Of a stretch of DNA of 64,000 nt, positions 3,361 through 48,867 are shown piece after piece. Every line of letters starts with the position of its first letter. Position 1 is the stretch's first letter. The position numbers and the translations under genes were made by a program. The notes beneath the pieces were generated by a model that saw only the letters and a program-made list of their open reading frames with translations, was not told the DNA's origin and did not search any database. This DNA is from Candidatus Latescibacterota bacterium (lineage in GTDB: Bacteria; Latescibacterota; UBA2968; UBA8231), in the NCBI GenBank assembly GCA_965197905.1, contig CBDAOB010000004.1, positions 576,001 to 640,000 on the forward strand, written 5' to 3'.

Positions 3361-6300
3361 TTATTCAACAAATTGCAGGTATCCTTCGTAGCGATCGTCC
3401 ATCTCTACCGCCTGCTGATATATCACCGCTGCTTCGTTGCGTCGGCCCTGCAGAAAACGCACGATAGCCATATTCAGACGCACACCGGCATGCTCCGGCA
3501 TCAGCTCCTCGGCTTGCTCCAACATCTTATACGCCGCGTCGAAGTCGCCGCGCTTGGCCAGGGCTACACCCTTGGAGTTGTAGGCGTGCCCCATCTCGGG
3601 AGAGCTACGGATTATTCGGTCGAAACGTTCGATGGCGCGGTCTATCTCGCCCTGATTCAGGTAGGAGGTAGCGACGCGGAAATTCTCCTCAACGGATTCT
3701 ACGCTGGCCAGGAAATCGAGCAGCCCTTCGTAGGAATCGTCTTGGTCGATCACCTGCTGGTACAACACATCTGCCTTCTGGTGCTCGCCCTTGAGATAGT
3801 GGACGAGAGCCACGTTCAAACGGAATCCCAGCTGCTCCGGCACCAGAGCGGCTGCCGCTTCGAACATCGACAGGGCTTCGTCGAACTGCCCCTTCCTGGT
3901 AAGCACCACTCCCTTGGCGTTGATCGCGTCGGCGTATTTGGGATCGGCCTGCAGCGCCGCGTCGAACTGCTGCAGCGCCTGGTCCAGCCGCAGTTGCCTA
4001 AGGTAACTGGCCCCGATCTCGTAGGACTCCTGGGCTTCACCCACTGAAGCCAGGAAATCGAACAGCTCCATGTAGGAATCGTCCGTCGCAACTACTTCTT
4101 CGAACAGCCGGTCCGCCTTTTCGCGCTCGCCTTTCAGGTAGTAGGTCAGCGCGATGTTCATGCGCACCCCGTTGTTCTCGGCGATCTGCAGCGATTCGCG
4201 ATAGAAGGTCAACGCGCCGTCGAAATCTTCCTGTCGCGTCAAGACTACACCTGTGGCATTGAGAGCGTCGGCGTGGTCGGGATCCATGCTGAGAACGCGA
4301 GCAAACATCGCGGACGCCTTCTCGAGATGATTCACCCTCAGGTAGGCGGCCCCGGCATCGTAAGCTCCCTCCGGTGTTTCGAGGGAAACGGCGCTGGAAA
4401 GGGCGATCTGATCGACCCGGTCGTCGAAGAACTGCAGATCCTTTTCCAATAGGCTGTCCAATGCGGCAACATCCGGAAGACTAATCTGCGTTGGAGAGAG
4501 GGCAGCCGGTTTGTAAACTTGCAGCCAGTTCTGCACGTAGACTTCGTCGACCAATTGTCGGGGTTTAAGACGTTTGTATTCCGCAACACCGTTGCGCCAG
4601 GCATCGGCGAAGGTGAAGCCGAACATGGTCGTCTCCACCGGAATCCAGACCCGGCCTTCCCACGCCACGTATTCGGATGAACTCACGAAGTGGTCCGGTG
4701 CCCGATCGGGCGGTATGCCGGTATCGAACATCAGATAGATGTGCCCCTTCCCCGGATCATTTGCTTCCAGGAACGCCGTGTCGATGCTGAGATTCTCCAG
4801 CATGGAGGCGTAGAGCACAGTCAGGTCATCGCAGTCGCCAATCTTGGTGTCGACCCCTTCCGGCATTTCCAGCAACTCGCTGGGATATTGCACGGTGTCG
4901 AAGATGGTTTTGTCGTCCGAAATGCTGGTGAATGGGGTTTTCTGATCGGCTTGGTAGCGGATCTTGTAGACGCCCATCGCATCGAACAGGACAGCCGCTT
5001 TGCCCATGTTGGAGCGATTGAACTTCGTTGTGAGCACGTCGTTGTAACGCTGCACCAATCCACGTGCCATCCCGGCCACTGCAAGGTCAGCGGGGGTCAC
5101 GAAAGCAGCCGCCATGCCGGGTATGTTCCAGCTCAATTTGCCGCGTCCGGCCACGTAAACCCGCTCCAACTGTTTCTCCACAGCCTGTTCGCGCCGGTTT
5201 CGAGAATAGGTCACCCGGACGATGGGGGTCACGAAATTGTCGAAGTAGGCTTCCGGTCGGTTGAACAGATCGGGATCGAACGTCACGTTGAAGGCGTACT
5301 TTTCGGTGCTCTGGGGAGGCAGCAGTACCTCCTCCTGATGCGGTACGCTCATGACCTTGGGCAGCATCAGACTCACGGTGACCGCGATCGGCTCTGGAGC
5401 CGAGTTGCCCAACACCACGTCGGCGAACTCGATCTCCTCGTAGTGCCGATACAAGGATCGAAAGATCGGCGACGGCCTGATCGTCGCATCCTTGATGGTC
5501 ACGACCTTGGGGTTGTAGGAAAGGATCAGTGAGCTGTAATGAGTTGCACCCAACTCCGGATGTGTCTCGTAGGCGTACTCCACCTGCGCGAAACGATGTT
5601 TCACGCCAATCCCGAACGCAGCGGTTGTACCGTCGGCGAAACTCTCCGGTGTGTCGCGCTCGCTTTTCAAGCCGGCCCGTAAGGCCAGGAGGCCGCGAAA
5701 CCAGTATTCGGCACCCACCCGATAGTGATCGTCGATCTCCGCCGCCAGGGTCAACCCTTCGATCGGTTTGTACGCGGCTCCAAGCCGGTAGTGCGCTGGA
5801 AATATCTCTTCACTGGTGCCGCCGTTGTGTTCGAGGGAAGTGCCACCGAGATCCTGGGCCGCAAATCCCAGGCGCACGCCGTACGGAAGCGGAGCCAGAA
5901 AACTCAGGTCCCAGCCCCAACCGGACGCGTTCAGGACTTCCTGCTCGTCCAGATCGATCCCCTGCGAAATGTATTTTCCCCGGACGCCGACGGCCAGATT
6001 GCCGATGTACGGTTTCAACCGTTGGATGCTGTTCCGATAGCCGTAGGCGAAGCCGATCTTGTTCTGGCTCGACTTCAAACCCAGGCCGGATTCCACGTCG
6101 TCGAAGCCCTCCCTGAACCAGTCGATCCCCAGGGCGTGGTTGTCCTTGACCGGTAGCAGATATCCCAGGTAGGAATCCGATAGCAGGCTGAAGCGATCCG
6201 CGTAACCGAAAGCCGCCTCCTGACGCTGCAGCGACGCCAAACCCGCGGGATTCCAGGTCACGGCAGTGGCATCGTTGGCAACGGCGACGAAGGCTCCTCC

Positions 6301-6414
6301 CATGGAGATCGCACGCACCCCAACTTCCACCTGTTTTGCCGTTTCGGCATGGGCAACAGTACCCGTAACCGCCAGCAATCCCAGAATCAGCAATCTCGGA
6401 GGAACCCGTATCAT
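3361..6414 (-). CDS. PorV/PorQ-like barrel + transglutaminase-like domain + TPR array fusion protein
   Basis: Signal peptide; GVRAISMGGAFVAVANDATAVTWNPAGLA (PorV/FadL-like N-terminus); GDCDD..GHIYL..WIPVETT motif set; multiple C-terminal TPRs. Confidence 0.8.
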   Translation of the reverse strand: MIRVPPRLLILGLLAVTGTVAHAETAKQVEVGVRAISMGGAFVAVANDATAVTWNPAGLASLQRQEAAFGYADRFSLLSDSYLGYLLPVKDNHALGIDWFREGFDDVESGLGLKSSQNKIGFAYGYRNSIQRLKPYIGNLAVGVRGKYISQGIDLDEQEVLNASGWGWDLSFLAPLPYGVRLGFAAQDLGGTSLEHNGGTSEEIFPAHYRLGAAYKPIEGLTLAAEIDDHYRVGAEYWFRGLLALRAGLKSERDTPESFADGTTAAFGIGVKHRFAQVEYAYETHPELGATHYSSLILSYNPKVVTIKDATIRPSPIFRSLYRHYEEIEFADVVLGNSAPEPIAVTVSLMLPKVMSVPHQEEVLLPPQSTEKYAFNVTFDPDLFNRPEAYFDNFVTPIVRVTYSRNRREQAVEKQLERVYVAGRGKLSWNIPGMAAAFVTPADLAVAGMARGLVQRYNDVLTTKFNRSNMGKAAVLFDAMGVYKIRYQADQKTPFTSISDDKTIFDTVQYPSELLEMPEGVDTKIGDCDDLTVLYASMLENLSIDTAFLEANDPGKGHIYLMFDTGIPPDRAPDHFVSSSEYVAWEGRVWIPVETTMFGFTFADAWRNGVAEYKRLKPRQLVDEVYVQNWLQVYKPAALSPTQISLPDVAALDSLLEKDLQFFDDRVDQIALSSAVSLETPEGAYDAGAAYLRVNHLEKASAMFARVLSMDPDHADALNATGVVLTRQEDFDGALTFYRESLQIAENNGVRMNIALTYYLKGEREKADRLFEEVVATDDSYMELFDFLASVGEAQESYEIGASYLRQLRLDQALQQFDAALQADPKYADAINAKGVVLTRKGQFDEALSMFEAAAALVPEQLGFRLNVALVHYLKGEHQKADVLYQQVIDQDDSYEGLLDFLASVESVEENFRVATSYLNQGEIDRAIERFDRIIRSSPEMGHAYNSKGVALAKRGDFDAAYKMLEQAEELMPEHAGVRLNMAIVRFLQGRRNEAAVIYQQAVEMDDRYEGYLQFVE

Positions 6415-6417
6415 TAT

Positions 6418-7878
6418 CTATTGTTCCAGCACGGTTAGGGAATCGCCGGCGCTCAAATTCGTTTGTGTGACCGGAAGCTGGCTTCCGGGAAATAACACCG
6501 CGACGGTGTACGGACCGGCCGGCGCACCGAAGATGAGCTCAGTGTTGCTTTGACCGGCGCTGACCTGTCGGTAGGCTCGCAGCTCGCCCGTCGCCGAATC
6601 CAGCAGGCGGACCCGGGCACCGATCCCGTCCACATTACTACCCCCCGCTGCGGGTCCCAGCCCGCGCACGCGGATGCGGAGGAACTGATCCGCGGCGGTA
6701 TCGTTCTGGAACAGTCGGTTTCCCGGATCGAATGTGCCGCCGAAACCGCTGCTGGCGTATACGTCGGGAGAGCCGTTGCTGTCGTAATCCGCCCACCCGG
6801 CGGCCATGTGAAACGATATACCCGTGGGCAAGCCGGCCTCGGCTGTAGCATTGCGGAAGGTGCCATCGCCATTGCTGGCGAAGAGCACATCGGGCTGCGG
6901 CTGTTTGTCTCCTCCATTGGCCAGAAAGAGATCCTGGTTGCCATCCCCATCGTAATCCGCCCACGCCACTGAGGCGGTTATCCACCCCGATCCGCTGTCG
7001 CGAACGTTTGCATCACCGGCAACATCGACGAATTGATCGTTGCCGTCGTTCCGAAACAGCGCGTTGCCGCCTACGTTGCCCAGGTAGAGATCCATATCCC
7101 CATCATTGTCGTAGTCTGCCCATGCCCCGCTCTGACCTATCTCCCGACTGCCGATGCTCGCGGCGCAAGCCACGGCAGCAAAACTTCCGTCGGTGGTCAG
7201 ATCGTTGCGAAACAACCCGTTTTCCTGTTCACGATTGGTTACGTAGACGTCGAGATCCCCGTCATCGTCATAGTCGACCCAATCGACATGTTGGGAATCC
7301 CTCTTGTCGGCAATCCCAATTCCAGTGACCGATGCAAATGTGCCATCTCCGACATTGCGATAGAGCTCGTTGTCGAAGTAATATTTGCCGAGGTAGATAT
7401 CCAGGTTGCCGTCCAGGTCGTAATCGCCCCAGTCGACGGAATTGACGGATCCGCGAGTTTCCCTATTTATCGATCCTCTGGCGCGACCTATCTCTTGAAA
7501 CCCGCTCTCACCGTTCTCGTAGAGAAAATCCTGGTCGAAGAAATCGGCCACGTAGAGATCTAGATCGCCGTCGTTGTCGAAGTCTGCCCATGCAGCGGCG
7601 GTACTGTTGTTCTTGTTGTCAACACCCAATTCGACAGCGACGTCGGTAAACGTGCCATCGCCGTCATTCCGATACAGGGCGTTTGCGGGAACCGAAACAG
7701 CGGTGGCCCAGTTGGTGACGTAGAGATCGGGGTCTCCATCGCCATCGTAGTCTCCCCACGCCAGCCCGGTGCTGTAAAGGCCCTGGTTTCCGGTACCCGC
7801 AATCTCCGTCGCTTCTTGGAAGGTTTGGGCAACCGCCGTGCCAGCTAGAAACAGTGTTGTGAAAACGATTCTTTTCAT
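6418..7878 (-). CDS. CRTAC1-like FG-GAP/VCBS repeat protein with ASPIC/UnbV-like C-terminus
   Basis: Signal peptide, repeated WGDYDxDGDxDLYV motifs, C-terminal SNVDGIGARVRL. Confidence 0.85.
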   Translation of the reverse strand: MKRIVFTTLFLAGTAVAQTFQEATEIAGTGNQGLYSTGLAWGDYDGDGDPDLYVTNWATAVSVPANALYRNDGDGTFTDVAVELGVDNKNNSTAAAWADFDNDGDLDLYVADFFDQDFLYENGESGFQEIGRARGSINRETRGSVNSVDWGDYDLDGNLDIYLGKYYFDNELYRNVGDGTFASVTGIGIADKRDSQHVDWVDYDDDGDLDVYVTNREQENGLFRNDLTTDGSFAAVACAASIGSREIGQSGAWADYDNDGDMDLYLGNVGGNALFRNDGNDQFVDVAGDANVRDSGSGWITASVAWADYDGDGNQDLFLANGGDKQPQPDVLFASNGDGTFRNATAEAGLPTGISFHMAAGWADYDSNGSPDVYASSGFGGTFDPGNRLFQNDTAADQFLRIRVRGLGPAAGGSNVDGIGARVRLLDSATGELRAYRQVSAGQSNTELIFGAPAGPYTVAVLFPGSQLPVTQTNLSAGDSLTVLEQ

Positions 7879-9107
7879 GGTCTACTTAATCACAGCGACG
7901 ACCTTCTCCTGCTTCGTATCGCCGGCATTGACGACGACGATGTAGAGCCCGCTGGAAACAGTGTTGCGGTCTTCGTCCCTTCCGTCCCACTCGAATGACG
8001 CTCTGCCTGGCGCCAGCGCACGGTCGCGGACGATCACCCGCTCCAAGCGACCTGAGGCGTTGTAGACGCGAACGGTCACATTCGCCGGACCGGTGAGATC
8101 GAACGAAATGTCGGTCTCCCTCTTGAACCTCGTGCCGCCTGGCGCGAAGGCTCGAGGCTGACAGTCCAATTGCCGAATAGCGAGCTTGCCTACCTGGGTA
8201 CGCAGATCCTGGAAGATCGCGAAAGTACCCAACGCGTCGATCGCCGTGGTCACTTCCCGGCTGCTGGCATCTGCGACTCCACCTACCCGACCCCATGCGC
8301 CGCCGGACAACGCGAACACGGCGAGCTTCGAGGGATCCCCTACTGCTGCTGATTCATCGCCGGAATAAGCAACGGTCAGTGTCACCGGTTTGCGCAGGGT
8401 CGCACCCGGCGCCGAGATTGCGAAGGCTCGGCTGATTCGGGTCAGCTCGGAGTCCTGCACATTGCGTTTCGCCGGAGGATCGGCCGCAGGACGAATCAGG
8501 ACCTCGCTGGTCCCTCCTTCCAGCGCGTTGGGAGGGAAGTATAGCTCGACGCTGCCTTCCGGATTCGTGATGGTGCCACCCAGCGCAGCATTGGCAAGTC
8601 GTGCCGCCGTGCGGAAACGAAAGTTGAACCCGCTCTCCGCCAGCTGCCCAAGCACCTCTCTTGACATCTCGATTTGGTACTCCGTGAACGCCTGCAGTCC
8701 CCCTTCTGGCGAAAAGGAGATCGTGGTCCCGCTGTCATCGGCTCCGAATCCTGTAATCGGCACGACCTCTTCAGCTGCCTCGAGATCTCCGAGGGCGCGG
8801 GCAAGCAGCAGAAAGTCGGTCTGCAGTTGCCGCGCCACACTCCCCGAGAAAACCACCTGGATAGTCGGCGTCGCGGATGAGACTCCTTCCTCATCCGCTT
8901 CGGGTCGAGTCGCCACCACTTCGGGAATCTGCGTGCGGAAGTCCCACTGACGATCTGGCCTAGCGGCCCCCAAGGGACCGTACAACCTGGAGGTGACGAG
9001 CGCCTGGTAGGCGTTGCCGGACAGGAAATCGATTTCCGGGAACAACACCGTAAACGTGGTTGCGTCGTAGCCGAAAGCGAGCTTGGGTCAAATGGTGTGT
9101 AAACGAC

Positions 9108-12100
9108 TCAGGCGGCAATCTTCTTCCTTTGCGCGATGTGTGATCCATTTTCGTAGCGCACATTGGCGTACACGTCAGCCATAAGATGCGGTGCACGGAG
9201 TCGGCGAAATCGTTTCTCGGCCACCATCAGTACCCGCCATATGAGGGCGGTGGCATTGGCCACCTTCTTGTAGCGCTTGGCCGCATTGGTTCGCAGCCGT
9301 ACCGAAGCGAAGGGACTTTCAACGACGTTGGTAGTGCGCAGGTGTTGCCAGTGGGCCTCGGGAAAGTCGTAGAATGCCACCATACGGTCCCAATCGCGCT
9401 CGAGGATATCTACGGCGTCTGGGCATTCGCGGTGGAATCGTTTGGCGAATTGATCGCGGCGTTTGGTCGCGTCTTGACGGGTCGGCGCGTAGGGGATCTG
9501 TGTCAGCAGTTGCCGCGCTTCGGCCTGCACGCGTTTAGGCAGCTTATCCAACACGTTCAGGAGGCGGTGATTCCAGCACCGCTGTTCCGCCGTCTCCGGC
9601 CAGACCTGCGCCAGGGCGGCCCAAATACCCAGGTGCCCATCCGCCACCAACAACTTCGCCGCGCTCAGTCCGCGGTCACGCAAATCGCGCAGCACGCTCG
9701 TCCACGACTCCTTCGATTCGCGATAGCCTGGGACAATCGTCAAGACTTCCTTGCGCCCATCGCTCATGGCGCCGATGACCACCAGGAGAGCGGCCTTTTC
9801 TTTCTCGAGCCCGGCTTTGACGTAGTAGGGTCGGACCGGAGCGCCCTGCGCCACACGCGTGATGTGGGTTTCTCCGGCCCGCCCTCCGAACCGGACGTGC
9901 GCGTTACCACGCATCCGGCTCTCCACAAGGTGCCGTGTGACCGCAGAGTCTCATCCGGTTGTCGCAGGCCAGGGAGAAGGGATCCGCGCCGATCGATAGC
10001 GGTAACGAGTCACTGCTACTTCGCCGACGTTGTAAAGAGCAATCCCGTCCTCGGTGGGCCACCATCCTGGCAGGTAGCGGCGTTTCAGCTTCCTCCAATT
10101 AAAGCGCGGGTGCTTGCGGCGCAGCCAATGCACTACGCGGCGCCAAGTGAAGCCCCGCACGTAGTTGAAAGTGGCCTTCGACACCCCGTACTGAAAGTAG
10201 TTGGCCCACCCCCGCAACACCGGATTGAGTTGGCGCAGAAGGCTCTTCAACGGCCTCTGCCGACCCGTTCTCGTGACTGCGCGCACCGTGCTCTTCAACC
10301 GGGCCAGAGATTCCTTTCTTGGCCACGTATAGATGCGTGCGCCAACCGGGCCCGGTTTCCGTCGCTTCTGAATGCGAAAACCCAGGAAATCGAAGCCACG
10401 GCTGATGTGCGTGATGGCGGTCTTCGTCTCCGACAGGTGCAGACCCATGGGGGTGAGAGTCACCCCCGCTTGGTCGCGCAGGTCATACGCTGCAGCTTCG
10501 GTGCCCGCCACCAGCAGCACGAAATCGTCAGCGTAACGGACAAGCCGACAAGTCGGTAGCCCCTTTCGCCGATGCGCTTGTCGCGCACTGGAGGTAGCGC
10601 CCACCTTTCTCCAGACCTCAGTGAAATAATCGTCGAGGACGGATAAGGCGATATTTGCCACCAGCGGTGAGAGAATACCGCCTTGCGGAGTGCCCGAAGT
10701 GCTTTCTTGCAACACCGATTGTTCCGTGAGGACACCGGCCTTGCAGAACGCTTTTACAAGCCTCAGAACATGCTTATCACCGATACGTCGACGCACGCGG
10801 TCCAAGAGGGCTGCGTGATCAATCTCATCGAAACAAGCACGGATATCGCCCTCCACCACCCACTCATAAGAGCGGGAGCAGAATTGATGAATCTCGGCGA
10901 TGGCGTCCTGAGCCCGCCGATTCGGGCGGAAGCCGTAGGAGCACGGCTTGAAGTCCGCTTCGAAGATCGGTTCGAGCACCAGCTTGAGTGCGGCTTGGAC
11001 CACTCGGTCCCGAGCGGTTGGGATGCCGAGCCGGCGCTTCTTCGTTGTGCCAGGTTTCGGAATCAACCGCTCGCGTACGGGCAGAGGCCGGAAACTGCGG
11101 GTCTTCAGATCAACCCGCACCTCGGCGAGAAAGGCCTCCTCGCCGCGTTCCGTCTCCACAGAGTAGGCCGTTTGTCCGTCCACTCCGGCCGAACGAGCAC
11201 CCTTGTTGCTGCGCACCCGACGCCAGGCTACACTCAAAAACGCCGGGTCACACACCAGGTTGAACAGGTCGTCGAAGCACTTGCTTCGATCCTCTACAGC
11301 CCAACGGTGCAGTTTGGTCTGGATTTCCAGTACTCGATTACGGGCTTGTTCTGCCTCGGGCCACGAAGCGCTGGCATTCACCGGCGTCCTCCTGTTTTTC
11401 CAGTACCCCACTGCGCAACTTGCTGCCTCCCTTCGCCATGTAAGCGGCTTTCCCGCTCGCGGACTACTACAGAGGCTCCGTCCCTTGCCAAGCCCCACAG
11501 CGGACAGCGCGCTGCCCCGATAACGGTCGGACTCGGCTCGGTTCCCACGTTCACCATGAACCGTTTGACGGGGGAGGTGCCCAGCTTTTCCCCTGCAACT
11601 TCGCCTTGGGTACGCCGCAGGCATTCTCCAAGGCCTCTGCTTCGGTGGGTATCACACCTCCCCAGAGTCGCAGTCGGTCATATATCCGACCACGTGCGTT
11701 GCGTACCAACCCTTATCCACCAGGTTTGGGTTGGCGGGCCGCTAAAGGGGGTTCCATCACTGGTTCACTTCGGGTTACACCATTCCGTCTTGCTTGCCAG
11801 ACGTGGAGTGTCTGGAGGTGCCACTCCACTCTGTCGTTGTCGAGGCTGCTTCCACCTTCCCCTGCGCTCCCAGGGTCAGGCTGCCTCCAGCTTCAACGGG
11901 CTGCTGCGACAGCCCGTTGGTGGGTCCTTGCATCCCACCCGGTTCTCTGGCGCCTCGTGGCGCACGATCCCGTCGGCCCAGGCGTACACCAGCTCGCACT
12001 CATCCAGCCGTCGGCTGCGCCAGGCGTGGTATTCGACGATCCACTTATCCCGCAAACGCGCGATTGAGGACGGCGACAGCGGCGCTCCCGCTCCCAGCAG

Positions 12101-12487
12101 GCCGCGCAGCGCCAGCTCGAAGTCACCTTGAGACAGACCGTGCAGATACAGTTCCGGCAACAGCTGACCCACCTCCTTCGTACGCCGCGCAAACAGCGGC
12201 AGAATGGCGCTCTCGAAGCGCTCTTCCAGACCTCGCACGCGTGGACGTTTTACCTCGATCGTGCCCGAGGTACAGGACAGTCGCCGCCGCTTCCCGTAGC
12301 CATTTCGATAGCCGCCGGGTGCGTCCAACGGGGCCTGACGCTGGTAGCGCGACCGCCCCAGCACCTGCGTCACTTCTTCATCCAAAACCGACTGCATCAA
12401 AGACTGAATCTGCGACCGCGTCCACGCTTCCAACGTTTCGAACGTGGGCATGGACATTTCCGCGGTGCTCAGCTTAGGTTGTGGCAT
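9108..12487 (-). CDS. IS256-family transposase in two exons (12487-11966 and 9824-9108; 412 aa after splicing)
   Basis: YRNGY, LYLHGLS, WADGI|YVKA, LLVADG, QRCWNH and RTTNVVES motifs; GAGGAG RBS before ATG 12487. Confidence 0.92.
9825..11965 (-). mobile_element. Group II intron with RT/maturase ORF, inserted in the IS256 transposase
   Basis: 5' GTGCG at 11965; domain V GAGCCGGATGCGTGGTAACGCGCACGTCCGGTTC at ~9888-9921; 3' end CGACCCTAC at 9825; removal restores the transposase frame. Confidence 0.95.
9951..11381 (-). CDS. ltrA: Group II intron reverse transcriptase/maturase (no recognisable HNH domain)
   Basis: RRLGIPTARDRVVQ, SYGFRP, GTPQGGILSP, RYADD, FDFLGF and LRGWANYF motifs; GTG start at 11381 with AGGAGG RBS. 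Confidence 0.93.
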   Translation of the reverse strand: MNASASWPEAEQARNRVLEIQTKLHRWAVEDRSKCFDDLFNLVCDPAFLSVAWRRVRSNKGARSAGVDGQTAYSVETERGEEAFLAEVRVDLKTRSFRPLPVRERLIPKPGTTKKRRLGIPTARDRVVQAALKLVLEPIFEADFKPCSYGFRPNRRAQDAIAEIHQFCSRSYEWVVEGDIRACFDEIDHAALLDRVRRRIGDKHVLRLVKAFCKAGVLTEQSVLQESTSGTPQGGILSPLVANIALSVLDDYFTEVWRKVGATSSARQAHRRKGLPTCRLVRYADDFVLLVAGTEAAAYDLRDQAGVTLTPMGLHLSETKTAITHISRGFDFLGFRIQKRRKPGPVGARIYTWPRKESLARLKSTVRAVTRTGRQRPLKSLLRQLNPVLRGWANYFQYGVSKATFNYVRGFTWRRVVHWLRRKHPRFNWRKLKRRYLPGWWPTEDGIALYNVGEVAVTRYRYRSARIPSPWPATTG

Positions 12488-13089
12488 GGCGATTCTCCTC
12501 TTCCTGCCGGGACAGCCCCGGCGCGTGTAATGTCTAATTACAAAGGAAGGGTAGGATCGCCTTCTGTGTATTTCCACACCTTTTGATTATAGCTCCCGAA
12601 AGCGGAGGCCTCCAAAGGCAGCGAATCCCCACTCTGACTGAGTCGCAGATTCTGGGGTGTAATCAGATCCTGGCTGATCGGGCCCGTAAACACCACCTGC
12701 ACCCGCTGTCGACCAGACGTTATGGTTGCTTCATCTCCCGGAACGGTGCGGGTGATATCCGGAATGCGTGTGCTGAACTCCCAGGCGAAATCCCCCACGT
12801 CCTGCTGCAGAGGTCCGCCGGCGACGGACGCGATCTGCAAGCGGTAGTTCGTCCCTGCCCGCAGCCCTCCTACGGGGGCGAGCGTCACGGTGTTGGTGTT
12901 GGAATTGTAAGCGGGTCCACCCCCCACGAGGTCGACGGCAATACCCTGCTGCAACATTGAGACGTTGCCCGTCAGAAGTAGGGCAGTTTCATCCAGGGGG
13001 CTGTCGAATACCGCGGTGACCGACATTGAAAGATCTGCGATCGAGGTGTCGCCAGACGCAGGAGCAACACTCGCCAGGGCTGGCACGTC

Positions 13090-14650
13090 TGTCTGGAACT
13101 GCCAGGACACCGGGATGTCGGGACCAAGAGGCCCACTGACTCCAGGGGCGATCTGAATGTTATAGCGACTACCTACCTGCCAACCGCTCGCCGGTGCGAG
13201 TCCGTAGCGCCCCGCTCCCCGGTCTACCGGATCGCCGGACCGCAGCGGCAAATTCACGCCTTCACGCGCGATTATGAAGTTTTCGGCGACCACCTGATCC
13301 GCATCGATCGGCACCGTGAACTGGACCGTAGCTTCGACCTGGCTGACCGCGACGTCGACGGCGTTCGAGTCAGGCTCCACATCGACCACTCGCGGTATGG
13401 CGGTATCGAAACGCCAGGAGATGGACTGACCGAGACCCAGGGGCCCACTCACTCCGGGAGCGATACGTACGCGGTAGGCGCTGCCCGCGTTCCAGCCAGC
13501 TTCGGGCGCAAAAGCGTAGCGAGCGTCCCCCCGATCTACCGGATCTCCGGACCGCAACGGCAGATTCACCCCGTCGCGTGCGATGGTGAAGTTTTCGGCG
13601 ACCACCTGATCCGCATCGATCGGCACCGTGAACTGGACCGTAGCTTCAATCTGGCTGACCGGGACGTCGACAGCGTTCGAATCGGGTTCCACATCGACCA
13701 CTCGCGGTATGGCGGTATCGAAACGCCAGGAGATGGGCTGACCGAGACCCAGGGGCCCACTCACCCCGGGAGCGATGCGCACGCGGTAGGCACTACCCGC
13801 GTTCCAGCCAGCTTCGGGCGCAAAAGCGTAGCGACCGTCCCCCCGGTCTACCGGATCTCCGGACCGTAGCGGCAGGTTCACCCCGTCGCGTGCGATGGTG
13901 AAGTTTTCGGCGACCACCTGATCCGCATCGATCGGCACCGTGAACTGGACCGTAGCTTCAATCTGGCTGACCGGGACGTCGACAGCGTTTGAATCGGGTT
14001 CCACATCGACCACTCGCGGTATGGCGGTATCGAAACGCCAGGAGATGGGCTGACCGAGACCCAGGGGCCCACTCACCCCGGGAGCGATGCGCACGCGGTA
14101 GGCGCTGCCTGCGTTCCAGCCAGCTTCAGGCGCAAAAGCGTAGCGAGCGTCCCCCCGATCTACAGGATCACCGGGCCGCAACGGCAGGTTCACCCCGTCG
14201 CGCGAGATAGTGAAGTTTTCGGCGACCACCTGATCCGCATCGATCGGCACCGTGAACTGGACCGTAGCTTCGACCTGGCTGACCGAGACATCGACGGCGT
14301 TCGAGTCGGGCTCCACATCGACCACTCGAGGTATCGCGGTCTCGAAACGCCAGGAGATGGGCTGGTCTTGTCCCAGGGGCCCACTCACCCCGGGAGCTAT
14401 GCGCACGCGGTAGGCGCTACCCGCGTTCCATCCAGCTTCGGGCGCGAGCCCGTAACGACCGTCCCCCCGGTCTACCGGATCACCGGGACGCAGGGTTAGG
14501 AGCTCGGCGCCGCGCAAGAGTTGGAAGTTGTCCGCTGTCAGCTTGTCTGCATCGATCGGAACGCTGAACAGGACGGATGCCTCGTCCAGATCAACGGTGA
14601 TTCCCTGGGCATCCGCCTCGGGAGTGAGCGAAACCACTCGCGGAACGGCC
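13090..14650 (-). repeat. Five tandem 312-bp (104-aa) Ig-like domain repeats, four of them near-identical
   Basis: PRVVDVEPDSNAVDV...GVSGPLG..ISWRFDTAI recurs; shadow ORFs at 13566, 13878 and 14190 are exactly 312 bp apart. Confidence 0.9.
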
Positions 14651-17541
14651 GTGCTGAAGCGCAGCGCGTACGGACCATCTCTTTGCGGTCCTCCGATGGC
14701 GCGGGGCAGGCGCACTGTATAGCTGCTTCCAGCGCGCAATCCCCCCTGCGCCTCGATCCGAACCGTCTGGGTTTCGGGGTTGTATTCTAGGGTTTGGATA
14801 GCACGTTGCTCGCCACCTTCCAGAACGGCCACAGCGTCCGCGGTCAACGCGCTGCCGTCGACCGGATTGTCGAACTGAAGAACCAAGGCCGTCGTCGAGG
14901 CCAGCACGGTCGTGTCCCCTTCGGCCGGCACCGATCCGGACAGATTTGGAACGGGTGTCTGGAAGCTCCAGCTGTAGTCGCCCTCCCCCAGTCTCAGGGT
15001 CCCGCCGAGAAGACTCGCCAGCACAACCTGGTAACGCGTTCCGGGTTTCAGACCGTCGACTAGGGCGAAACTGAGGGTATTGTTCTCCGCGCTGAAGACC
15101 GGCGTCTCCAATAATGGCTGCGCTTCGTCCTCGGCCAGGACCTGAACGGCATTCGGATCGGCCGCCAGAAGCCCGGTCAGGATGGGTGTATCGAACGTGG
15201 CCGTCAGCCGGCCGTCCTCCAGGGAGGTTCCAATCTCGTTGTCGGGCGGCACCGTAGACAACAACGCTGGAACGCGGGTGCTGAAGCGTACAATGCTGGC
15301 ATTGTCTGGACGATTCCCCACCAGATCAGCGATGGCCGCCGAAACCTCGACCTCATAGGTCGAACCCGGGAGCAATCCCCCTTCCGGCAGCAGAGTTACC
15401 CTGCGCGCATCCGCATCGTAGGAAGGATCTGTCAGTTGTGCTAGGGGGGAAACCCCCAGGCGGATGACAAAATTGTCGGCCGTGACCCCAAGGGGATCGA
15501 TCGGTTCCGAAAAGGTGAGAGTGACCTGGCTTGTGGTTGCTGGGATCTCGCTGGCTCCATCCGAGGGCTCGCTCGCTATTAATCGCGGCGTCTCCGTGTC
15601 TACCAGGAAAACATCGGTCGAGTCGAACCGGGCCAATGCGTTGAGTCGTCGATCTCGCGCGCCGCTCACCGAAAGTGTCGCGTTTCCTGAAGGATGCGCG
15701 CTGGTGATCGTAAGCTCGCCCGTCCAGGTGTCTGCAGTGAACTGCAACTGCTGGAAAGCGATCACGCTATCTCCGATTGAAGCCGTCACCGCGGGCGGAC
15801 TCGTGGGGTCGAGGCCCGAATGTTCATCTAGAATCTGCAGCGCCAGGGTGAGGGTCTGTCCAATGCCTACCTGGTTCTTACTCAGGTTTACCCCAGCAAT
15901 AGTTGGCGCGATGGTATCGACGATAAAGCTGGCCGGATCGCTCCAGTCGGACCGGGCCCAACCGTCATCCACCGCCTGCACGGACCAGTAGTAGGTTCCG
16001 CTGGGCAACCCGTTCAAGTCCTGGAAGAGATTGTTTCCGGCGGATCCCGGACCGACCGCCTGGTTGCCCGAGAGAACATTGTCGGCGCCGCGGGAGGTTC
16101 CCACACGGACATTGTAGGTGAGGCTCTGTGGCGTCGAGTCGTTGTCGTCCAGTCCCAGCTCCCAGGTCAGACGGACGGTGCTTGCAGAATCGACGGCACC
16201 CACGACTATGGGTACCCGGGGATTGGTGTTGCGATTGAACTGCGATTCCAGGTTGTCGTTGATCGTCGTGCTGGGCGAGAACCCCGCGTCGCGACCGGCG
16301 GAAAAGAGATCCAGATCTCCGTCGCCATCGTGGTCGACCGGTGCGAGCGAGCTGAAATCGACCCCTGTGAGGACAAGGATGTTCTCGATCTCAAATCCTG
16401 AGTCGGTATTTTCGTAGATCTGCAGGAAGGGGGCCTCGCCATTGTTGCCCGCCAACACGAGATCCAGGTCCTGATCGTTGTCGTAATCTCCCCAGACAAT
16501 GTCGCCTCCCCGCATTCCGGTAAGTTGAACACCGTCCAGGAGTGTAAAATCTCCATTGCCGTCGTTGGTGTAGATCTCCGTGGTGACACCGGTCTCGGCA
16601 ATGCCGCCGACAGCGAGGTCCATGTCGCCGTCCCCATCCACATCTCCCCACGCCAGGTCGCTGGACTCCAACGCTGTCAGGGTTTGTTCGACGTTGATCA
16701 ATGACCCGGACTCGTTGCGCGCGAGAATGAAGCGACGGGCGCCGCTGACAGCACTGCCATTTGCGGCCACGTCGAGGTCACCGTCTCCATCCATATCCGC
16801 GAAGGCTACTTCGCCGTTGTTGAGGCCCTCCAAACCAAAGTCGCCGTCTTCGAAATCTCCGAGACCGTCGTTGATCAGTACGCGGGTGTAGGATTGTATC
16901 ACCCCGTCGATGACATCGTCACTCTGCCCCAACACGGCGAGATCCAGATCGCCATCATTGTCCACATCCCCCCAATCCGCCGAGCTTGATGACAGATTTT
17001 GTAGCTCGGAGCCGAGGCTGAGGTTCCATTGGCCGCCGTCCGAATCCGCCAGGTAGAGCGCGCCGCCCCGATTCTCAAAGCTATCCTCGCCTAACACGAC
17101 CAGATCGAGGTCACCATCGTTGTCCGCGTCCCCCCATGCGGCGTCGCCGTTTTGCAGCGGTTGTATATTGGCGTCGTTTGTGATGGAGAGGCCTGAAGTA
17201 GCATTCTCATAGACCAGTGACTGGGCTTCGCCGCTTCGATTTTGACCGGTGATGGCTAAATCCACATCGCCGTCGTTGTCGTAGTCTCCCCAGTCCATTG
17301 CACTCGATTGCAGGGACCGGAGGATTTGATTGGAAGAGACGAACTGCTGGACGTTTAGAATATCCTCCTGCGACCATTCCGAGCGTGCGAGCCCGCCGTC
17401 TATCGTCTGAACGGACCAGAAGTAGGTGTCCCCTGCGCCAGGGGGCGCTGTAGAACCTTGGTGGTCTTGAATCCGGCATTTCCGATTTCCAGCGGAATTT
17501 CGCCCGATACGATGTCGTTGCCGCCGGAAACGGTCCCGATG

Positions 17542-18290
17542 GTAGGGTCGAGAACTGGCGCGCCAGCCTTAGGGTTCGGTGGGTTCCCCATGGCTTTCGC
17601 CATAGCCCTCAGTCCGACTCCCATCGCTACGTTTCCAGTTCCCGCCGCCTCAAACCGGACGTGCGGATCTCCCGCATCCGGCTTCCCGACGAACGTCACA
17701 TCCAGGCACACGCCACAAGGACTTCACCTGGTAGTCAAGCTGCTTCCGATGCATACTAGTCTTACTGCTGGAGGCAATAGGCTCACGCCACTCTCCAACC
17801 CTCTGCACTTCCGCAGCATGTCCGAAGTCAGGCCCCTTCCCTCCACCGGAGTTACCCGGCTTCCTCGGTACTACGCGCCTGTCCGCCACCTCATCCAGCC
17901 CAGTCTGGCCCTCGCGGGTTACCGGTTGGAGGCACTCGCTGCTTCCACCGGATGAGGCTTCCCGTGTTGCGCCACATCTCCTCTTACACACATGCTGTCG
18001 CCACTACCCCGGCGGAACAGCTGGGTGCGCTTGTCGCTCGACTTCCCCAGCTGCAGCGGCCTTCCCTGGTTTACGGGCAGGTCGGCTTCCGCATTACACT
18101 TTTCGAGGCCTGCTCAGCGTTTACTCACGTTACGGCCTGTGTGCTCGCCAAGTCGCCCAAGGCGACCCTCTACACCGGAGGCTTCAGCGGCTTCGTCGCC
18201 TCCACCACTGCTCCGATTGCTACCGGCTGGAGCGACCCTTGCCGGGTGGGATTCGCACCCACTGAAGATGTGCGCCTTAGCACGGCGCAC
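17542..18290 (-). mobile_element. ORF-less group II intron (749 nt) in the giant surface-protein gene
   Basis: 5' GTGCG at 18290; domain V AAGCCGGATGCGGGAGATCCGCACGTCCGGTTT at ~17652-17684; 3' end CTCGACCCTAC at 17542; splicing joins CG|C (Arg) in frame. Confidence 0.92.
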
Positions 18291-19738
18291 CGCAAATTGT
18301 ATGTTAGTGTTGAACTCTCGGCGTCATTTCCGGGACCCCAGCTGAACAGCACGCTCTCGCTGGTAACCCTGGCGGAATTTAGCCGTTGCGGTGGCGACGG
18401 CGCCCCGTTGGTGACCGTAGTACCCACGTTCGAGTAGAGCGTGCTGAAGCGCTGACCGTCAGCGTCAACGCCGGCCAGGAGCAAATCTGCCTTGCCGTCC
18501 GCATCGTAATCAGACCAGGCGGTCGCGCCTCCGGCTAGACCCGAAAGATTGGTTTCATCCGACGCACCGGTTACCTGGCCTTCATCGTTGCGAAACACGA
18601 ACGCCTGATACACGGACAGGATTGAGAGGCCCGACGCCGCCAGATCCAGATCACCGTCATTGTCGTAATCGATCCACGCGAGACGCCCAGCAACGCGCCG
18701 AGTGGTTGGCAGCGAAAACGACTCGTCGAGGTTGAATACGCCCGTGGGCCGGTTTCGATAGATCTGGAAAACGGCGTTCCAAGAATTGTCCCGACCCGAT
18801 ATAGCAAGATCGGAGTTTCCGTCGCCGTCATAGTCTCCCCATGCAACCGAGCCACCTTTGACGGGGGTCGAAACGTTTACAGTCGCATCGAGCGTTAGAG
18901 ACCCCACCGGTTCATTCTTGTAAAATTCGGTGACGGAACCAAGGCCACCCGAGGTTGTGACGTTGTTGCCCGATAAAATCAAGTCCAGATCACCATCGTT
19001 GTCGTAATCCCCCCAATCGGCATCGCCATTGTGGACGCTGACCAGATTCTCAGAGTTCACCTGGTCTTGTTCGAGAAGGCCACTGGTATTGGTATAAAGG
19101 CGGGTCAGGGACGTTCCGTTTTCTTCCATCCCCAGCACCAGCAAATCGAGATCGCCATCGTTGTCCGCATCTCCCCACTCAATGGTCGCGTAACGAACTC
19201 CGCGGAGGGTAGGGCTCCCAGTCTCGTCTATCTGTGTTCGATCGACACTCAAGATTCGCTCGCCGGGACCAGACGCTCCGTCTTCGTTCACATAAAGGCG
19301 CAGACTCTCCTCGTTTTGGACGTCCCAGCCCGCGACAGCCAGATCCCGGTCGCCGTCGTTGTCGTAGTCTCCCCACGCCACGTCACCATGATATACACCG
19401 ACCAGCTGAACCTGTGCCAAATCTTGAAAGAGGAGTGACTCGTCGTTGCGGTAGATTCTGGCGATGCGTGCGCATGCACCATTTTCGTCCACGATCTCGC
19501 CGACGATGGCCAGATCCGGATCGCCGTCGTTGTCGTAGTCCGACCATGAAGCCTGCCCGGCCCAAACGCCCGGAAGCGATTGCGGGGTGGACTCGAGGCT
19601 TTGAGAACCGATCGGGACTGCGTAAGCGAGCAACCCGATCAGTAGCGAGCGCAGCAAGATGGACATGGAGTTACTGTTGTGTGTAAAGTTTCGCGCCGAA
19701 TTGGCGAAAAGCAGGGAAGCTTTTCCGTTGCCGTCCCA

Positions 19739-22651: not shown

Positions 22652-22729
22652 TGGGGTGAGTGACGGGAATTGAACCCGCGGCCTCCTGGGCCACAACCAG
22701 GTGCTCTAACCAACTGAGCTACACCCACC
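22652..22729 (-). tRNA. tRNA-His (GUG) with G-1 and encoded CCA
   Basis: GGTGGGTGTAGCTCAGTTGGTTAGAGCACCTGGTTGTGGCCCAGG...GGTTCAATTCCC...CACCCCA. Confidence 0.96.
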
Positions 22730-22788
22730 ACACTATGGTTTGCCGGCAAGTAAGCGTTTTGAATATCCGCTGAAGACGTGTGGCATCA

Positions 22789-22865
22789 TGGCGTGCCCAG
22801 CAGGATTCGAACCTGCGACCGGCTGCTTAGAAGGCAGCTGCTCTATCCAGCTGAGCTATGGGCAC
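22789..22865 (-). tRNA. tRNA-Arg (UCU) with encoded CCA
   Basis: GTGCCCATAGCTCAGCTGGATAGAGCAGCTGCCTTCTAAGCAG...GGTTCGAATCC...GCACGCCA. Confidence 0.96.
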
Positions 22866-29278: not shown

Positions 29279-30828
29279 CCTTGATTCGGCATTAACTCGG
29301 TGAAATTTTGGCTGTTCAGTGCGCGCCATTCGGCGGTGAATTTGAGAATCTCCCATAGCAAAAAGGCCTTTCGTTCCGGTTATTTGGAAGTGGCGATACT
29401 CCCTTTTCACCAAAAACGAAAGGCCACGTACTGTGAGACGAAAGAAAGCGGATTTGAGGACGCGCGTCAACCACAATTTGGCCGTCGAATTCACCGCCGA
29501 AGGCCTCACTTCGTATGCCGGTTTGGAGCTGTTGATCCGGTATTGGCGCGGCATCGGATGGAACCGTCAATTGCGTCGGCACCTGTCTGCCGTCGTTCCG
29601 GGCAGTGATTTCGGCATGGTAGGTCTGTGTCGGGTGCTCCTCGGTCTGCTGCTGGTGGGTGGCCGTCGACTGCGACATCTGGGCTTCTTGCAAGGAGATC
29701 CTTTGCTGCAGCGGTTTTGCGGTCTGAAAGACCTGCCCACCGACGGCAGTGTCAGCCGCTGGCTCAAACGCTTCACGGTGGCCGCCGAAGAGGCGTTGAA
29801 AACGCTCAACGCCGATGTCGTCGCCGGGGTGATCGGTCTGTTGAAGGCCCGCACACTGAGCATCGACATCGATGGCACGGTGCTGTGCACCGGCCACAAG
29901 GTCGGCGGTGCCTGCCGTGGGTACAACCCGCATCATCGCAAGGTCCCCAGTTACTATCCCATCACCGCTTACCTGGCCGACAGCGGTCATTTTCTCCGGC
30001 TCCACAACCGTCCGGGCAACGTCAACGATGGCGCTTCCTCCATCCCGTTTCTACAGGCGGTGTTCGAGCAAATCGAACAGACCTTGGGGCGCTCATACCG
30101 GCTGCGATTTCGCATGGACGGCGCCTTTTTCAGGGAGGATGTGATTGCGACCTGGATGCTCATCGTGCCCAGTATGCTATCAAGGTGCCGTTCTGGCGCT
30201 GCCTGGACCTGCAAACCCAGATCCGCCAACGTCGTCGTTGGCAGCGCGTCGAAGACGGCGTCGACGGCTTCTTTTCTTCGGTCAAGGTCGGCAAGTGGAA
30301 ACGCACCCTTAACGTGGTCATCTTTCGCAAGCGGGTGATGCATCCCACGCGCAAGAATTACCAGTTGGACCTGTTCGAGCCGGATAACGGCACCTGGGAA
30401 TACTCCGCGCTGGCCACCAATCTACCTTTCGATGCAAAATCGCTCTGGCGCTTCATGGGTGGTCGCGGCCTACACGAAAAAGCCATCGGCGAACTCAAGA
30501 CGGGGCTGGCCTTCGACGCCATTCCCACGGATGACTACCGGGCCAACAGCGTCTGGCAACAATTTGTCGTGCTGGCGCACAATCTCCTAGCCAATTTCCA
30601 GATCGAATCCGGGCTCATAAAGCGCCACCGAACCAGGAAGAATACCGCCCGCTGGGCCCTGAAATCCGTGCGCACGCTACGTTTCGAGCTGTTCAACCGC
30701 GCCGGACACTTGATGCACCCGGAAGGACGAGCCACTTTGCGTCTGCAACGCAACAAGAAGGCCGAAAAACAGTTCCGAAAAATCAGCGCAGCTCTACGAA
30801 AAGTCGCCTGATTTTTGCCGAATCAAGG
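29279..30828 (+). mobile_element. IS1380-family insertion sequence (1550 bp)
   Basis: Perfect 13-bp TIR CCTTGATTCGGCA at 29279-29291 and 30816-30828; 4-bp TSD CTAA at 29275-29278 and 30829-30832. Confidence 0.9.
29433..30811 (+). pseudogene. IS1380 transposase with a frameshift near 30150
   Basis: LTSYAGL, IDIDGT, RPGNV and RMDGAFF in one frame; YAIKVP and RGLHEKAIGELK in another; one base missing at ATT GCG AC CTG GAT. Confidence 0.85.
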
Positions 30829-48747: not shown

Positions 48748-48867
48748 TTTGCGCCACAGATCCAATCTCCTATATTTAGTCCATCATAAAGTGGTCATTT
48801 GACGGCAGCTTGCAGCCACTGTAAAAACTCGCTAAAAAGCCAGCGCACAGGTTTAACCTGAATCGAC

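What the first reader, a model, noticed from the sequence alone, without database searches (positions are those of the whole stretch)
7882..19666. One ~7.5-kb gene carrying three nested mobile elements, all exactly reconstructable
What the ORF track shows as several unrelated ORFs is a single ~2,503-aa gene. It is interrupted by an ORF-less group II intron and by an IS256, which is itself interrupted by an RT-encoding group II intron. All are on the same strand, so both introns can in principle splice out of their host transcripts. Removing the elements and one TSD leaves 7511 nt, one base short of a full frame. Expression would need RNA splicing, DNA excision and repair of one indel.
Basis: seen in the sequence. 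Interest (0 to 1): 0.8.

Follow-up and report, generated by a model that had tools for sequence, protein, structure and literature searches.

The report
Dead gene, integron-homing miniature intron
A large cell-surface protein gene has been wrecked by a pile-up of jumping elements, which is ordinary; the more interesting part is that one of them, a self-splicing intron with no enzyme gene of its own, has recently spread through the genome and lands mainly at one spot in the recombination sites of an integron gene-cassette array.

Summary
Confirmed, with corrections. One FG-GAP/Ig-repeat gene (19666-7882, minus) holds a 749-nt ORF-less group II intron (I1) and, separately, an IS256 (8-bp TSD) whose transposase holds a 2141-nt RT intron (I2). 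Only I2 is nested. The frame defect is +2, not -1; the protein is 2502 aa and aligns with intact orthologs across every junction. It is a recent pseudogene, not a splice-and-excise switch. All three elements are young and multicopy (I1 13 copies, I2 10 full loci). I1 (class F-like) is probably moved in trans by a related intact RT intron with the same EBS1. Seven of its 13 copies lie in integron cassette arrays (1.9% of the genome), on the top strand at the end of the attC left arm, unlike IIC-attC introns; RT-coding relatives do this in two other genomes. The window site is an attC look-alike. In a congener, four IS256 copies share one RT-less intron, hinting that IS plus intron moves as a unit. 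The scan earlier noted I1 in nuoH of this genome, and top-strand attC introns and WADGI|Y introns in other genomes.

The parts
18291..19666 (-). Host gene piece 1 (ATG at 19666; signal-peptide-like N terminus by eye, FG-GAP repeats); ends in IBS1 of I1 and an attC-like YAAC motif 16 nt before the junction
17542..18290 (-). I1, ORF-less group II intron, 749 nt, class F-like; 13 copies in the genome
18069..18075 (-). EBS1 of I1 (CGUAAAC, loop of a DI hairpin)
   Evidence: best 6-mer of an unbiased pairing scan over 12 distinct sites, 5.54 of 6; fold
12596..17541 (-). Host gene piece 2 (FG-GAP, fn3, Big_5 Ig repeats); ends with the first TSD copy at 12603-12596
17430..17433 (-). Run of four G on the coding strand holding the +2 frameshift
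9079..12595 (-). IS256-family element (1376 nt plus I2), imperfect terminal repeats, 8-bp TSD
11966..12487 (-). Transposase exon 1 (174 codons, ends ...WADGI)
9825..11965 (-). I2, RT-encoding group II intron, 2141 nt, class G (g1)-like; RT frame 11456-9951 with YADD; EBS1 GAUACC at 11653-11648
9108..9824 (-). Transposase exon 2 (238 aa plus stop)
9071..9078 (-). Second TSD copy
7882..9070 (-). Host gene piece 3 (Big_5, ZU5, C-terminal FlgD-type Ig domain; stop at 7882)
3361..7878 (-). Downstream genes of the same apparent operon: FG-GAP protein (7878-6418) and PorV-family/TPR protein (6414-3361), both intact

Best explanation
A conserved ~2500-aa secreted or surface FG-GAP/Ig-repeat gene was recently inactivated during a genome-wide burst of mobile elements. 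Shown: the anatomy, the copy numbers, the empty orthologs, the target motifs. Inferred: (a) I1 is a non-autonomous retroelement whose RNA borrows the RT/maturase of a related intact intron (G000:C3:1187174-1189158) and reverse-splices where EBS1 pairs with GTTTACG-like DNA followed by C, helped by a YAAC motif about 16 nt upstream; this combination is the R'' box plus left arm of one subtype of this genome's attC sites, so I1 mostly homes into attC top strands, co-oriented with the cassettes, and the window site is an off-target look-alike; (b) the IS256 then transposed in, and I2, whose natural homing site is the WADGI|Y codon of IS256 transposases, either came with it or homed in afterwards; (c) the +2 slip arose once selection was gone. 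Splicing could remove I1 and I2 from RNA but not the IS or the frameshift, so no full protein is made.
For: I1: 12 full copies and one of 700 nt, 99.7-100% identical. I2: 11 full rows and 1 partial, two rows being one locus where C5 overlaps C2. Helper: 441-aa RT over the TIGR04416 cut-off, 91% identical to I1 over nt 1-467, first 225 nt and EBS1 identical. +1 base C at 12 of 12 distinct sites. attC identity: hairpin family of 60 nhmmer rows from intron-free seeds; in the C2 array the upstream R' matches the cassette's own R'' in 15 of 25 scored pairs against a shuffle mean of 1.3, max 7 in 10,000; intact IntI at C3:204281-205219. 7 of 13 I1 copies lie in arrays covering 1.86% of the genome; of motif-matching sites 6 of 8 in arrays and 2 of 79 outside are occupied; among attC rows 4 of 5 with a good IBS1 and 0 of 55 without are occupied. 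A second ORF-less intron with EBS1 GCACGG sits at the same position in the other attC subtype. RT-coding relatives sit in complete attC sites inside arrays in G002 and in G020, another genus. I2 relatives sit at WADG(I)|Y in several different IS256 elements of G002. dN/dS against G002 is 0.09-0.13, so loss is recent. Order: X2 lacks the +2, its contig runs 23 nt into I1 and another stops matching at the IS edge; X5 contigs stop matching at both edges (below the tool's 31-nt bridging rule, so a hint).
Against: No splicing, mobility or trans-action was observed. 6 of 13 I1 copies are outside arrays (flgE-like, ankyrin, nuoH-like genes, this gene, two others), and only 5 of 13 rebuild a site that the attC profile finds. 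Array bounds were drawn after the fact from the attC hits. I1's 3' end is closer to G002's introns (93%) than to the local helper (87%), so the helper is not its direct parent. The YARC motif is class-wide (18 of 28 related loci), so attC use may be a by-product; survival bias and local re-insertion could add to the enrichment. No attI was identified and the intact IntI lies about 84 kb from the nearest array. No clear EBS2 was found.
Confidence: 0.8

Rival explanations
1. A reversible switch: the gene is expressed after splicing of I1, precise IS excision and slippage in the G run.
For: All elements are co-oriented and exactly removable; both introns keep intact DV/DVI folds (z -4.1 and -4.6); the frameshift sits in a short homopolymer; X2 seems to hold the gene with I1 alone.
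Against: Three independent repairs are needed; no joint across the IS in the host gene is among the rows shown (258 rows were not shown); the elements are generic multicopy parasites; G002's ortholog was lost independently by a 229-nt deletion.
Confidence: 0.04
2. I1 has no attC specialisation: it homes by EBS1, +1 C and a class-wide YARC preference, and attC copies are over-represented because the motif is dense there and insertions between cassettes are harmless.
For: YARC upstream in 18 of 28 related loci from many phyla, none of the 25 distant ones matching this attC profile; 6 of 13 copies outside arrays; 77% relatives in G027 have other EBS1 and non-attC flanks.
Against: Motif-matched occupancy 6 of 8 inside versus 2 of 79 outside arrays; EBS1 differs between three introns (CGUAAAC, CGUGAAU, GCACGG) yet each lands at the same attC position. 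This rival differs from the best reading only in mechanism, not in the verdict on the gene.
Confidence: 0.35
3. The IS256 transposes as a composite with its intron, its transposase being made only from spliced mRNA.
For: In G000 every IS copy with both halves carries I2, three with their own perfect TSD. In G002 four 2172-bp copies, at most 3 differences apart, carry the same 796-nt RT-less I2 derivative, two with own TSDs and two with swapped TSDs; no intron-free copy of that IS among 40 of 46 candidates scored; its two longer I2 copies lack RT residues 268-314, including YADD.
Against: The window's IS allele differs at 4 positions from the other copies while I2 is identical, as expected of separate homing; I2 also sits at non-IS sites; intron-free IS joints occur in X1 and X5 contigs, organism unknown; RmInt1 is reported to block its IS because it splices poorly (PMC5894124, passages).
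Confidence: 0.45
4. Assembly chimera or sequencing error.
For: No listed contig bridges a whole element; TSDs are mismatched between some IS copies elsewhere, so IS copies are joined wrongly or recombined somewhere in this assembly.
Against: Single-copy host gene in correct order, perfect TSD on both sides, exact exon fusions, X1 contigs enter the IS and I1 from unique flanks and match the +2 allele with no difference.
Confidence: 0.04

Closest known systems
ORF-less Thermosynechococcus elongatus introns mobilised by related RTs (PMC2882425; outline and abstract read)
   Same: Many ORF-less copies beside an RT-coding relative; divergence of target specificity; insertion into non-essential mobile DNA.
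   Different: Here a class F-like intron in a mesophilic-looking Latescibacterota-type genome, with integron attC sites as the renewable target; trans action is inferred, not assayed.
Group IIC-attC introns (as described in PMC7923331, passages; PMC4424553, passages)
   Same: Group II introns resident in attC sites of cassette arrays that also use look-alike sites.
   Different: IIC-attC insert in the bottom strand, opposite to the cassettes, at TTGT/T with 3-4 bp EBS1; I1 inserts in the top strand, co-oriented, about 16 nt after R'' with a 7-nt EBS1 and a non-C RT.
UHB.I2 (IIB1/CL1) and an Enterobacter cloacae IIC intron in an attC top strand (PMC7923331, section 7 and passages; the cited original and the supplements not read)
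   Same: Co-oriented with cassettes, associated with attC.
   Different: Single cases, other classes; UHB.I2 lies immediately after an attC, whereas I1 splits the left arm from the rest, is ORF-less, and recurs in three genomes.
RmInt1 in ISRm2011-2 (PMC5894124, passages)
   Same: An En-less group II intron whose homing site lies in a multicopy IS.
   Different: Class D in IS630 versus class G-like I2 in IS256; here all intact-ended IS copies are occupied, and in G002 by an RT-less derivative.
Class F/g3 intron Ni.ha.I1 and class G/g1 intron Rh.js.I1 (PMC3552965, text parts 1-3 of 4 and Table S2)
   Same: Best matches among five references: helper RT 47% to Ni.ha.I1; I2 RT 52% to Rh.js.I1; intron sizes similar.
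   Different: Only five references, no tree; listed host loci there do not include attC.

Membership tests
Group II intron (I1) | GUGYG 5' end, AY 3' end, bulged A in DVI, DV with AGC triad | tested here: met
   Rfam DV/DVI score 39.2 is just under the gathering score because DVI is long
Group II intron (I1) | EBS1-IBS1 and +1 recognition across sites | tested here: met
   window site scores 5.5 of 7, the weakest of 13
Group II intron (I1, I2) | Splicing in vivo | tested here: inconclusive
   only contigs of one RNA run; no exon joint among the rows shown
Trans-mobilised ORF-less intron | Intact related RT intron in the same genome | tested here: met
Trans-mobilised ORF-less intron | RT acts on the ORF-less RNA | not testable with these tools
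   needs a mobility assay
Group IIC-attC | Bottom-strand insertion opposite to the cassettes at TTGT/T | tested here: not met
   top strand, co-oriented, after GTTTACG-like left arm
Group IIC-attC | 3-4 bp EBS1-IBS1 and class C RT | tested here: not met
   7-nt EBS1; helper RT far closer to Ni.ha.I1 than to solved IIC RTs (different programs)
Class F / g3 (I1 and helper) | RT groups with class F | tested here: inconclusive
   best of 5 references; no tree, no class D or E references
Class F / g3 (I1 and helper) | Long structured DVI (PMC3753933, passages) | tested here: met
   about 105-nt DVI
Class G / g1 (I2) | RT groups with g1, intron of about 2.16-2.21 kb | tested here: inconclusive
   52% to Rh.js.I1, best of 5; 2141 nt; actinobacterial top hits; no tree
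IS256 family | Mutator-family transposase, terminal inverted repeats, target duplication | tested here: met
   PF00872 on both exons; 19 of 25 TIR, 8-bp TSD; that 8 bp is typical is recalled
IS256 family | Complete DDE triad and activity | not tested
   that the D of WADG is the first catalytic residue is recalled, not checked
attC / integron array (I1's main target) | R''/R' boxes, bottom-strand hairpin, one co-oriented ORF per repeat, R'-R'' complementarity within a cassette | tested here: met
   (15 of 25 scored pairs; 2 of 27 unscored; five misses are rows where the script took an ATT word for R')
attC / integron array | Adjacent intI and attI | tested here: inconclusive
   intact IntI 84 kb away; truncated integrase-like frame before the C2 array, below cut-off; attI not sought
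attC (the window site itself) | Hairpin and R' box | tested here: not met
   no profile hit and no candidate fold; only the left-arm-like motif
Twintron | Intron nested in an intron (PMC4424553, passages) | tested here: not met
   I2 lies in an IS, I1 stands apart
IStron | Intron that splices the whole IS out of the host mRNA (PMC4227781, search listing only) | tested here: not met
   splicing I2 leaves 1376 nt of IS in the host gene

The most novel reading that the evidence does not exclude
A class F-like group II intron lineage has specialised on the left arm of attC top strands, retunes EBS1 to each attC subtype, spreads as RT-less miniatures, and by splitting the hairpin locks cassettes in place while splicing itself out of the cassette transcript; in the same genus an IS256 travels with a spliceable (even RT-less) intron in its transposase, making transposition depend on splicing.
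Probability: 0.35. Interest if true: 0.65.

Novelty: new variant of a known kind. Interest (0 to 1): 0.4.

Why it matters
The wrecked gene itself is ordinary. If the attC left-arm homing holds, integron arrays have a further intron lineage beyond IIC-attC, one that could freeze cassettes against IntI excision and that shows how a retroelement finds a renewable target. The genome also offers natural tests of whether an ORF-less bacterial intron splices well enough to spare a host gene (flgE-like and ankyrin genes with I1 as the only visible lesion near the site) and whether an IS can move with an intron in its transposase.

Tried and rejected
-1 frameshift and 2503 aa: rejected. EBS2 for I1: no window scored above about 3.6 of 6. 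Whole-intron fold of I1 was not informative (z -1.33). A generic attC scorer on 28 of 80 related loci failed its positive control (L072 scored 6), so it says nothing about other attC types; the profile test covers only this attC family; 52 loci were dropped because a junction was not recovered. RNA run X9 holds I1 pieces with no difference over 583 nt and little of the host gene, but contigs cannot show transcription, strand or strain; small-share runs were not used for habitat. Promoter scan: 4 sites against 2.7 expected, uninformative. Family-wide DNA searches scored only 3-7 candidates per genome, so blanks are not absences. PMC12584367 (abstract) concerns groEL introns and PMC3942029 (passages) gave no IS256-intron case. 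Print searches for top-strand attC introns returned only PMC7923331 as a direct case; searches for IS-plus-intron composites and for this phylum showed none in their listings. The library lacks most subscription journals, and the supplements of PMC7923331 were not read and may bear on novelty. No structure or complex prediction was run.
Full report
Observation. The region is one minus-strand gene from 19666 to 7882 cut by three insertions. I1 spans 18290-17542 and I2 11965-9825; the IS spans 12595-9079 with an 8-bp duplication on both sides and 19 of 25 matching terminal bases. Rfam finds DI of I1 and DV/DVI of both introns; both DV/DVI folds beat 200 of 200 shuffles. Without I2 the IS encodes a 412-aa PF00872 transposase.

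Ortholog and read tests. The congener G002 is empty at all three sites, has one copy of the duplicated target, and lacks two bases at the shift. Contigs of runs X2 and X5 also lack two bases at 17430-17432, whereas the X1 contig over 16304-17498 equals the window. The lesion is therefore +2 and real; the protein is 2502 aa and aligns through the I1, shift and IS positions with 6 of 6 orthologs aligned (91% for G002, 50-52% for five intact 2267-2500-codon frames). It has FG-GAP repeats, fn3 and Big_5 Ig domains, ZU5 and a C-terminal FlgD-type Ig domain, and heads an apparent operon with a second FG-GAP gene and a PorV-family/TPR gene; a secreted or surface role is inferred from these domains. 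dN/dS against G002 is 0.09-0.13, so the loss is recent; G002's copy is separately broken by a 229-nt deletion. The closest RT relatives come from records titled Candidatus Latescibacterota. X2 appears to have I1 but neither the IS nor the +2, and X5 none of the three; this rests on where contigs stop matching, below the tool's bridging rule, and on tables that were cut.

Copy numbers. I1 has 12 full copies and one of 700 nt at 99.7-100%. I2 has 11 full rows and one partial; two rows are one locus because C5 overlaps C2. All IS copies with both halves carry I2, three with their own perfect duplication; one internally deleted copy and one 88% relative are empty. This is a young genome-wide burst.

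How I1 moves. An intact 1985-nt intron with a 441-aa RT lies at C3:1187174-1189158, directly behind an I1 copy, 91% identical over I1 nt 1-467 and identical over the first 225 nt including EBS1. ORF-less bacterial introns nearly always have such a relative (PMC4424553, passages), and trans mobilisation is reported for T. elongatus (PMC2882425, abstract). An unbiased scan puts EBS1 at nt 216-222, pairing with GTTTACG-like exon ends; the next base is C at 12 of 12 distinct sites; no EBS2 stood out, in line with its being dispensable for splicing in IIE/IIF introns (PMC3753933, abstract and passages). The helper RT is closest to class F/g3 Ni.ha.I1 and the I2 RT to class G/g1 Rh.js.I1 among five references taken from Table S2 of PMC3552965; this is a best match, not a tree.

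The attC target. A profile seeded with four intron-free hairpins finds 60 rows, nearly all in arrays on C1, C2 and C3. In the C2 array the R' in front of a cassette complements that cassette's own R'' in 15 of 25 scored pairs (shuffles: mean 1.3, max 7), the mark of integrase-inserted cassettes, and the bottom strands fold as hairpins. An intact IntI is present but 84 kb from the nearest array. Seven of 13 I1 copies lie in the arrays (1.86% of the genome, bounds drawn after the fact), on the top strand about 16 nt after R''. Five rebuild a site that the profile finds; eight do not, the window site among them. Among attC rows, 4 of 5 with IBS1 of at least 6 of 7 are occupied and 0 of 55 others; among motif-matched sites genome-wide, 6 of 8 in arrays and 2 of 79 outside. 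A second ORF-less intron (827 nt, C3:349k) has EBS1 GCACGG and sits at the same place in the other attC subtype. RT-coding relatives with EBS1 CGUGAAU sit in complete attC sites in arrays of G002 and of G020, another genus; two further full copies and two fragments have left-arm-like flanks by eye but no profile hit at the site. Against specialisation: the YARC motif is class-wide (18 of 28), 0 of 25 distant relatives hit this profile, and six I1 copies lie elsewhere, in flgE-like, ankyrin and nuoH-like genes among others. The window site has the YAAC motif and the weakest IBS1 (5.5 of 7): an off-target hit.

I2 and the IS. I2's EBS1 GAUACC fits 6 distinct sites; its usual site is WADGI|Y of IS256 transposases, also in several different IS256 elements of G002, while most family relatives of the IS are empty there. 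Intron-in-IS is known from RmInt1 (PMC5894124, passages). G002's four IS copies all carry one 796-nt RT-less I2 derivative, with own or swapped duplications, and its longer I2 copies lack the YADD region, which favours movement of IS plus intron as a unit; the window's private IS alleles with an identical I2 favour separate homing. Unresolved.

Comparison and novelty. IIC-attC introns use the bottom strand in the opposite orientation; PMC7923331 (passages, section 7) reports one IIB1 intron just after an attC and cites one IIC intron in a top strand. My print searches gave no other direct case. Earlier notes of this scan describe top-strand attC introns in other genomes, mostly at R', one class D case at the left arm, the same I1 in nuoH here, and a WADGI|Y intron elsewhere; these are unchecked notes, and the attC reading here was reached before I opened them.

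Verdict. The left-arm, top-strand attC homing of an amplified ORF-less class F-like intron, and the possible IS-plus-intron unit, are a new variant of known kinds. Interest 0.4.

Noticed in passing
G000:C2:3300-36800, C3:289400-363100, C1:172400-189600: Large chromosomal integron-type cassette arrays with two attC subtypes whose right spacer is about 4 nt longer than the left; truncated integrase-like frame at C2:37267-37707, intact IntI at C3:204281-205219.
   Followed up: partly
G000:C3:1186425-1189158: I1 lies in tandem directly in front of its probable helper intron, at an attC-left-arm-like site.
   Followed up: yes
G000:C3:348603-349430: Second ORF-less group II intron (827 nt, starts GTGTG) in the other attC subtype, with matching EBS1; no close RT partner was seen.
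   Followed up: partly
G000:C5:2488115-2488863 and C3:919022-919770: I1 in the sense strand of a flgE-like gene and an ankyrin gene whose frames run on across the site once it is removed (498 and 670 codons); good tests of splicing rescue.
   Followed up: partly
G002:C1:146213-148384, 206220-208391, 1368245-1370416, 3554149-3556320: Four IS256 copies with the same RT-less mini-intron; two have swapped target duplications, suggesting an inversion of about 60 kb.
   Followed up: partly
G000:C2:3325 and C3:314046: An IS256 copy lies inside an attC; its two flanks are on different contigs or loci, so IS copies recombined or were mis-joined.
   Followed up: partly
G002:C1:459255-465872 (L020:6256-12872): The congener's ortholog is broken by a 229-nt deletion and has fewer Ig repeats; the gene may be dispensable in this genus.
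   Followed up: yes
window 29433-30811: DDE_Tnp_1_4 (IS1380-type, name recalled) transposase split over two frames.
   Followed up: partly
G000:C1:176341-177703 and C5:668277: A third RT-coding group II intron near the C1 array, and one more DV-like motif on C5; neither was delimited.
   Followed up: no
window 22655-22865 and 48781-48856: Two tRNAs and a SAM-alpha riboswitch match in Rfam.
   Followed up: no
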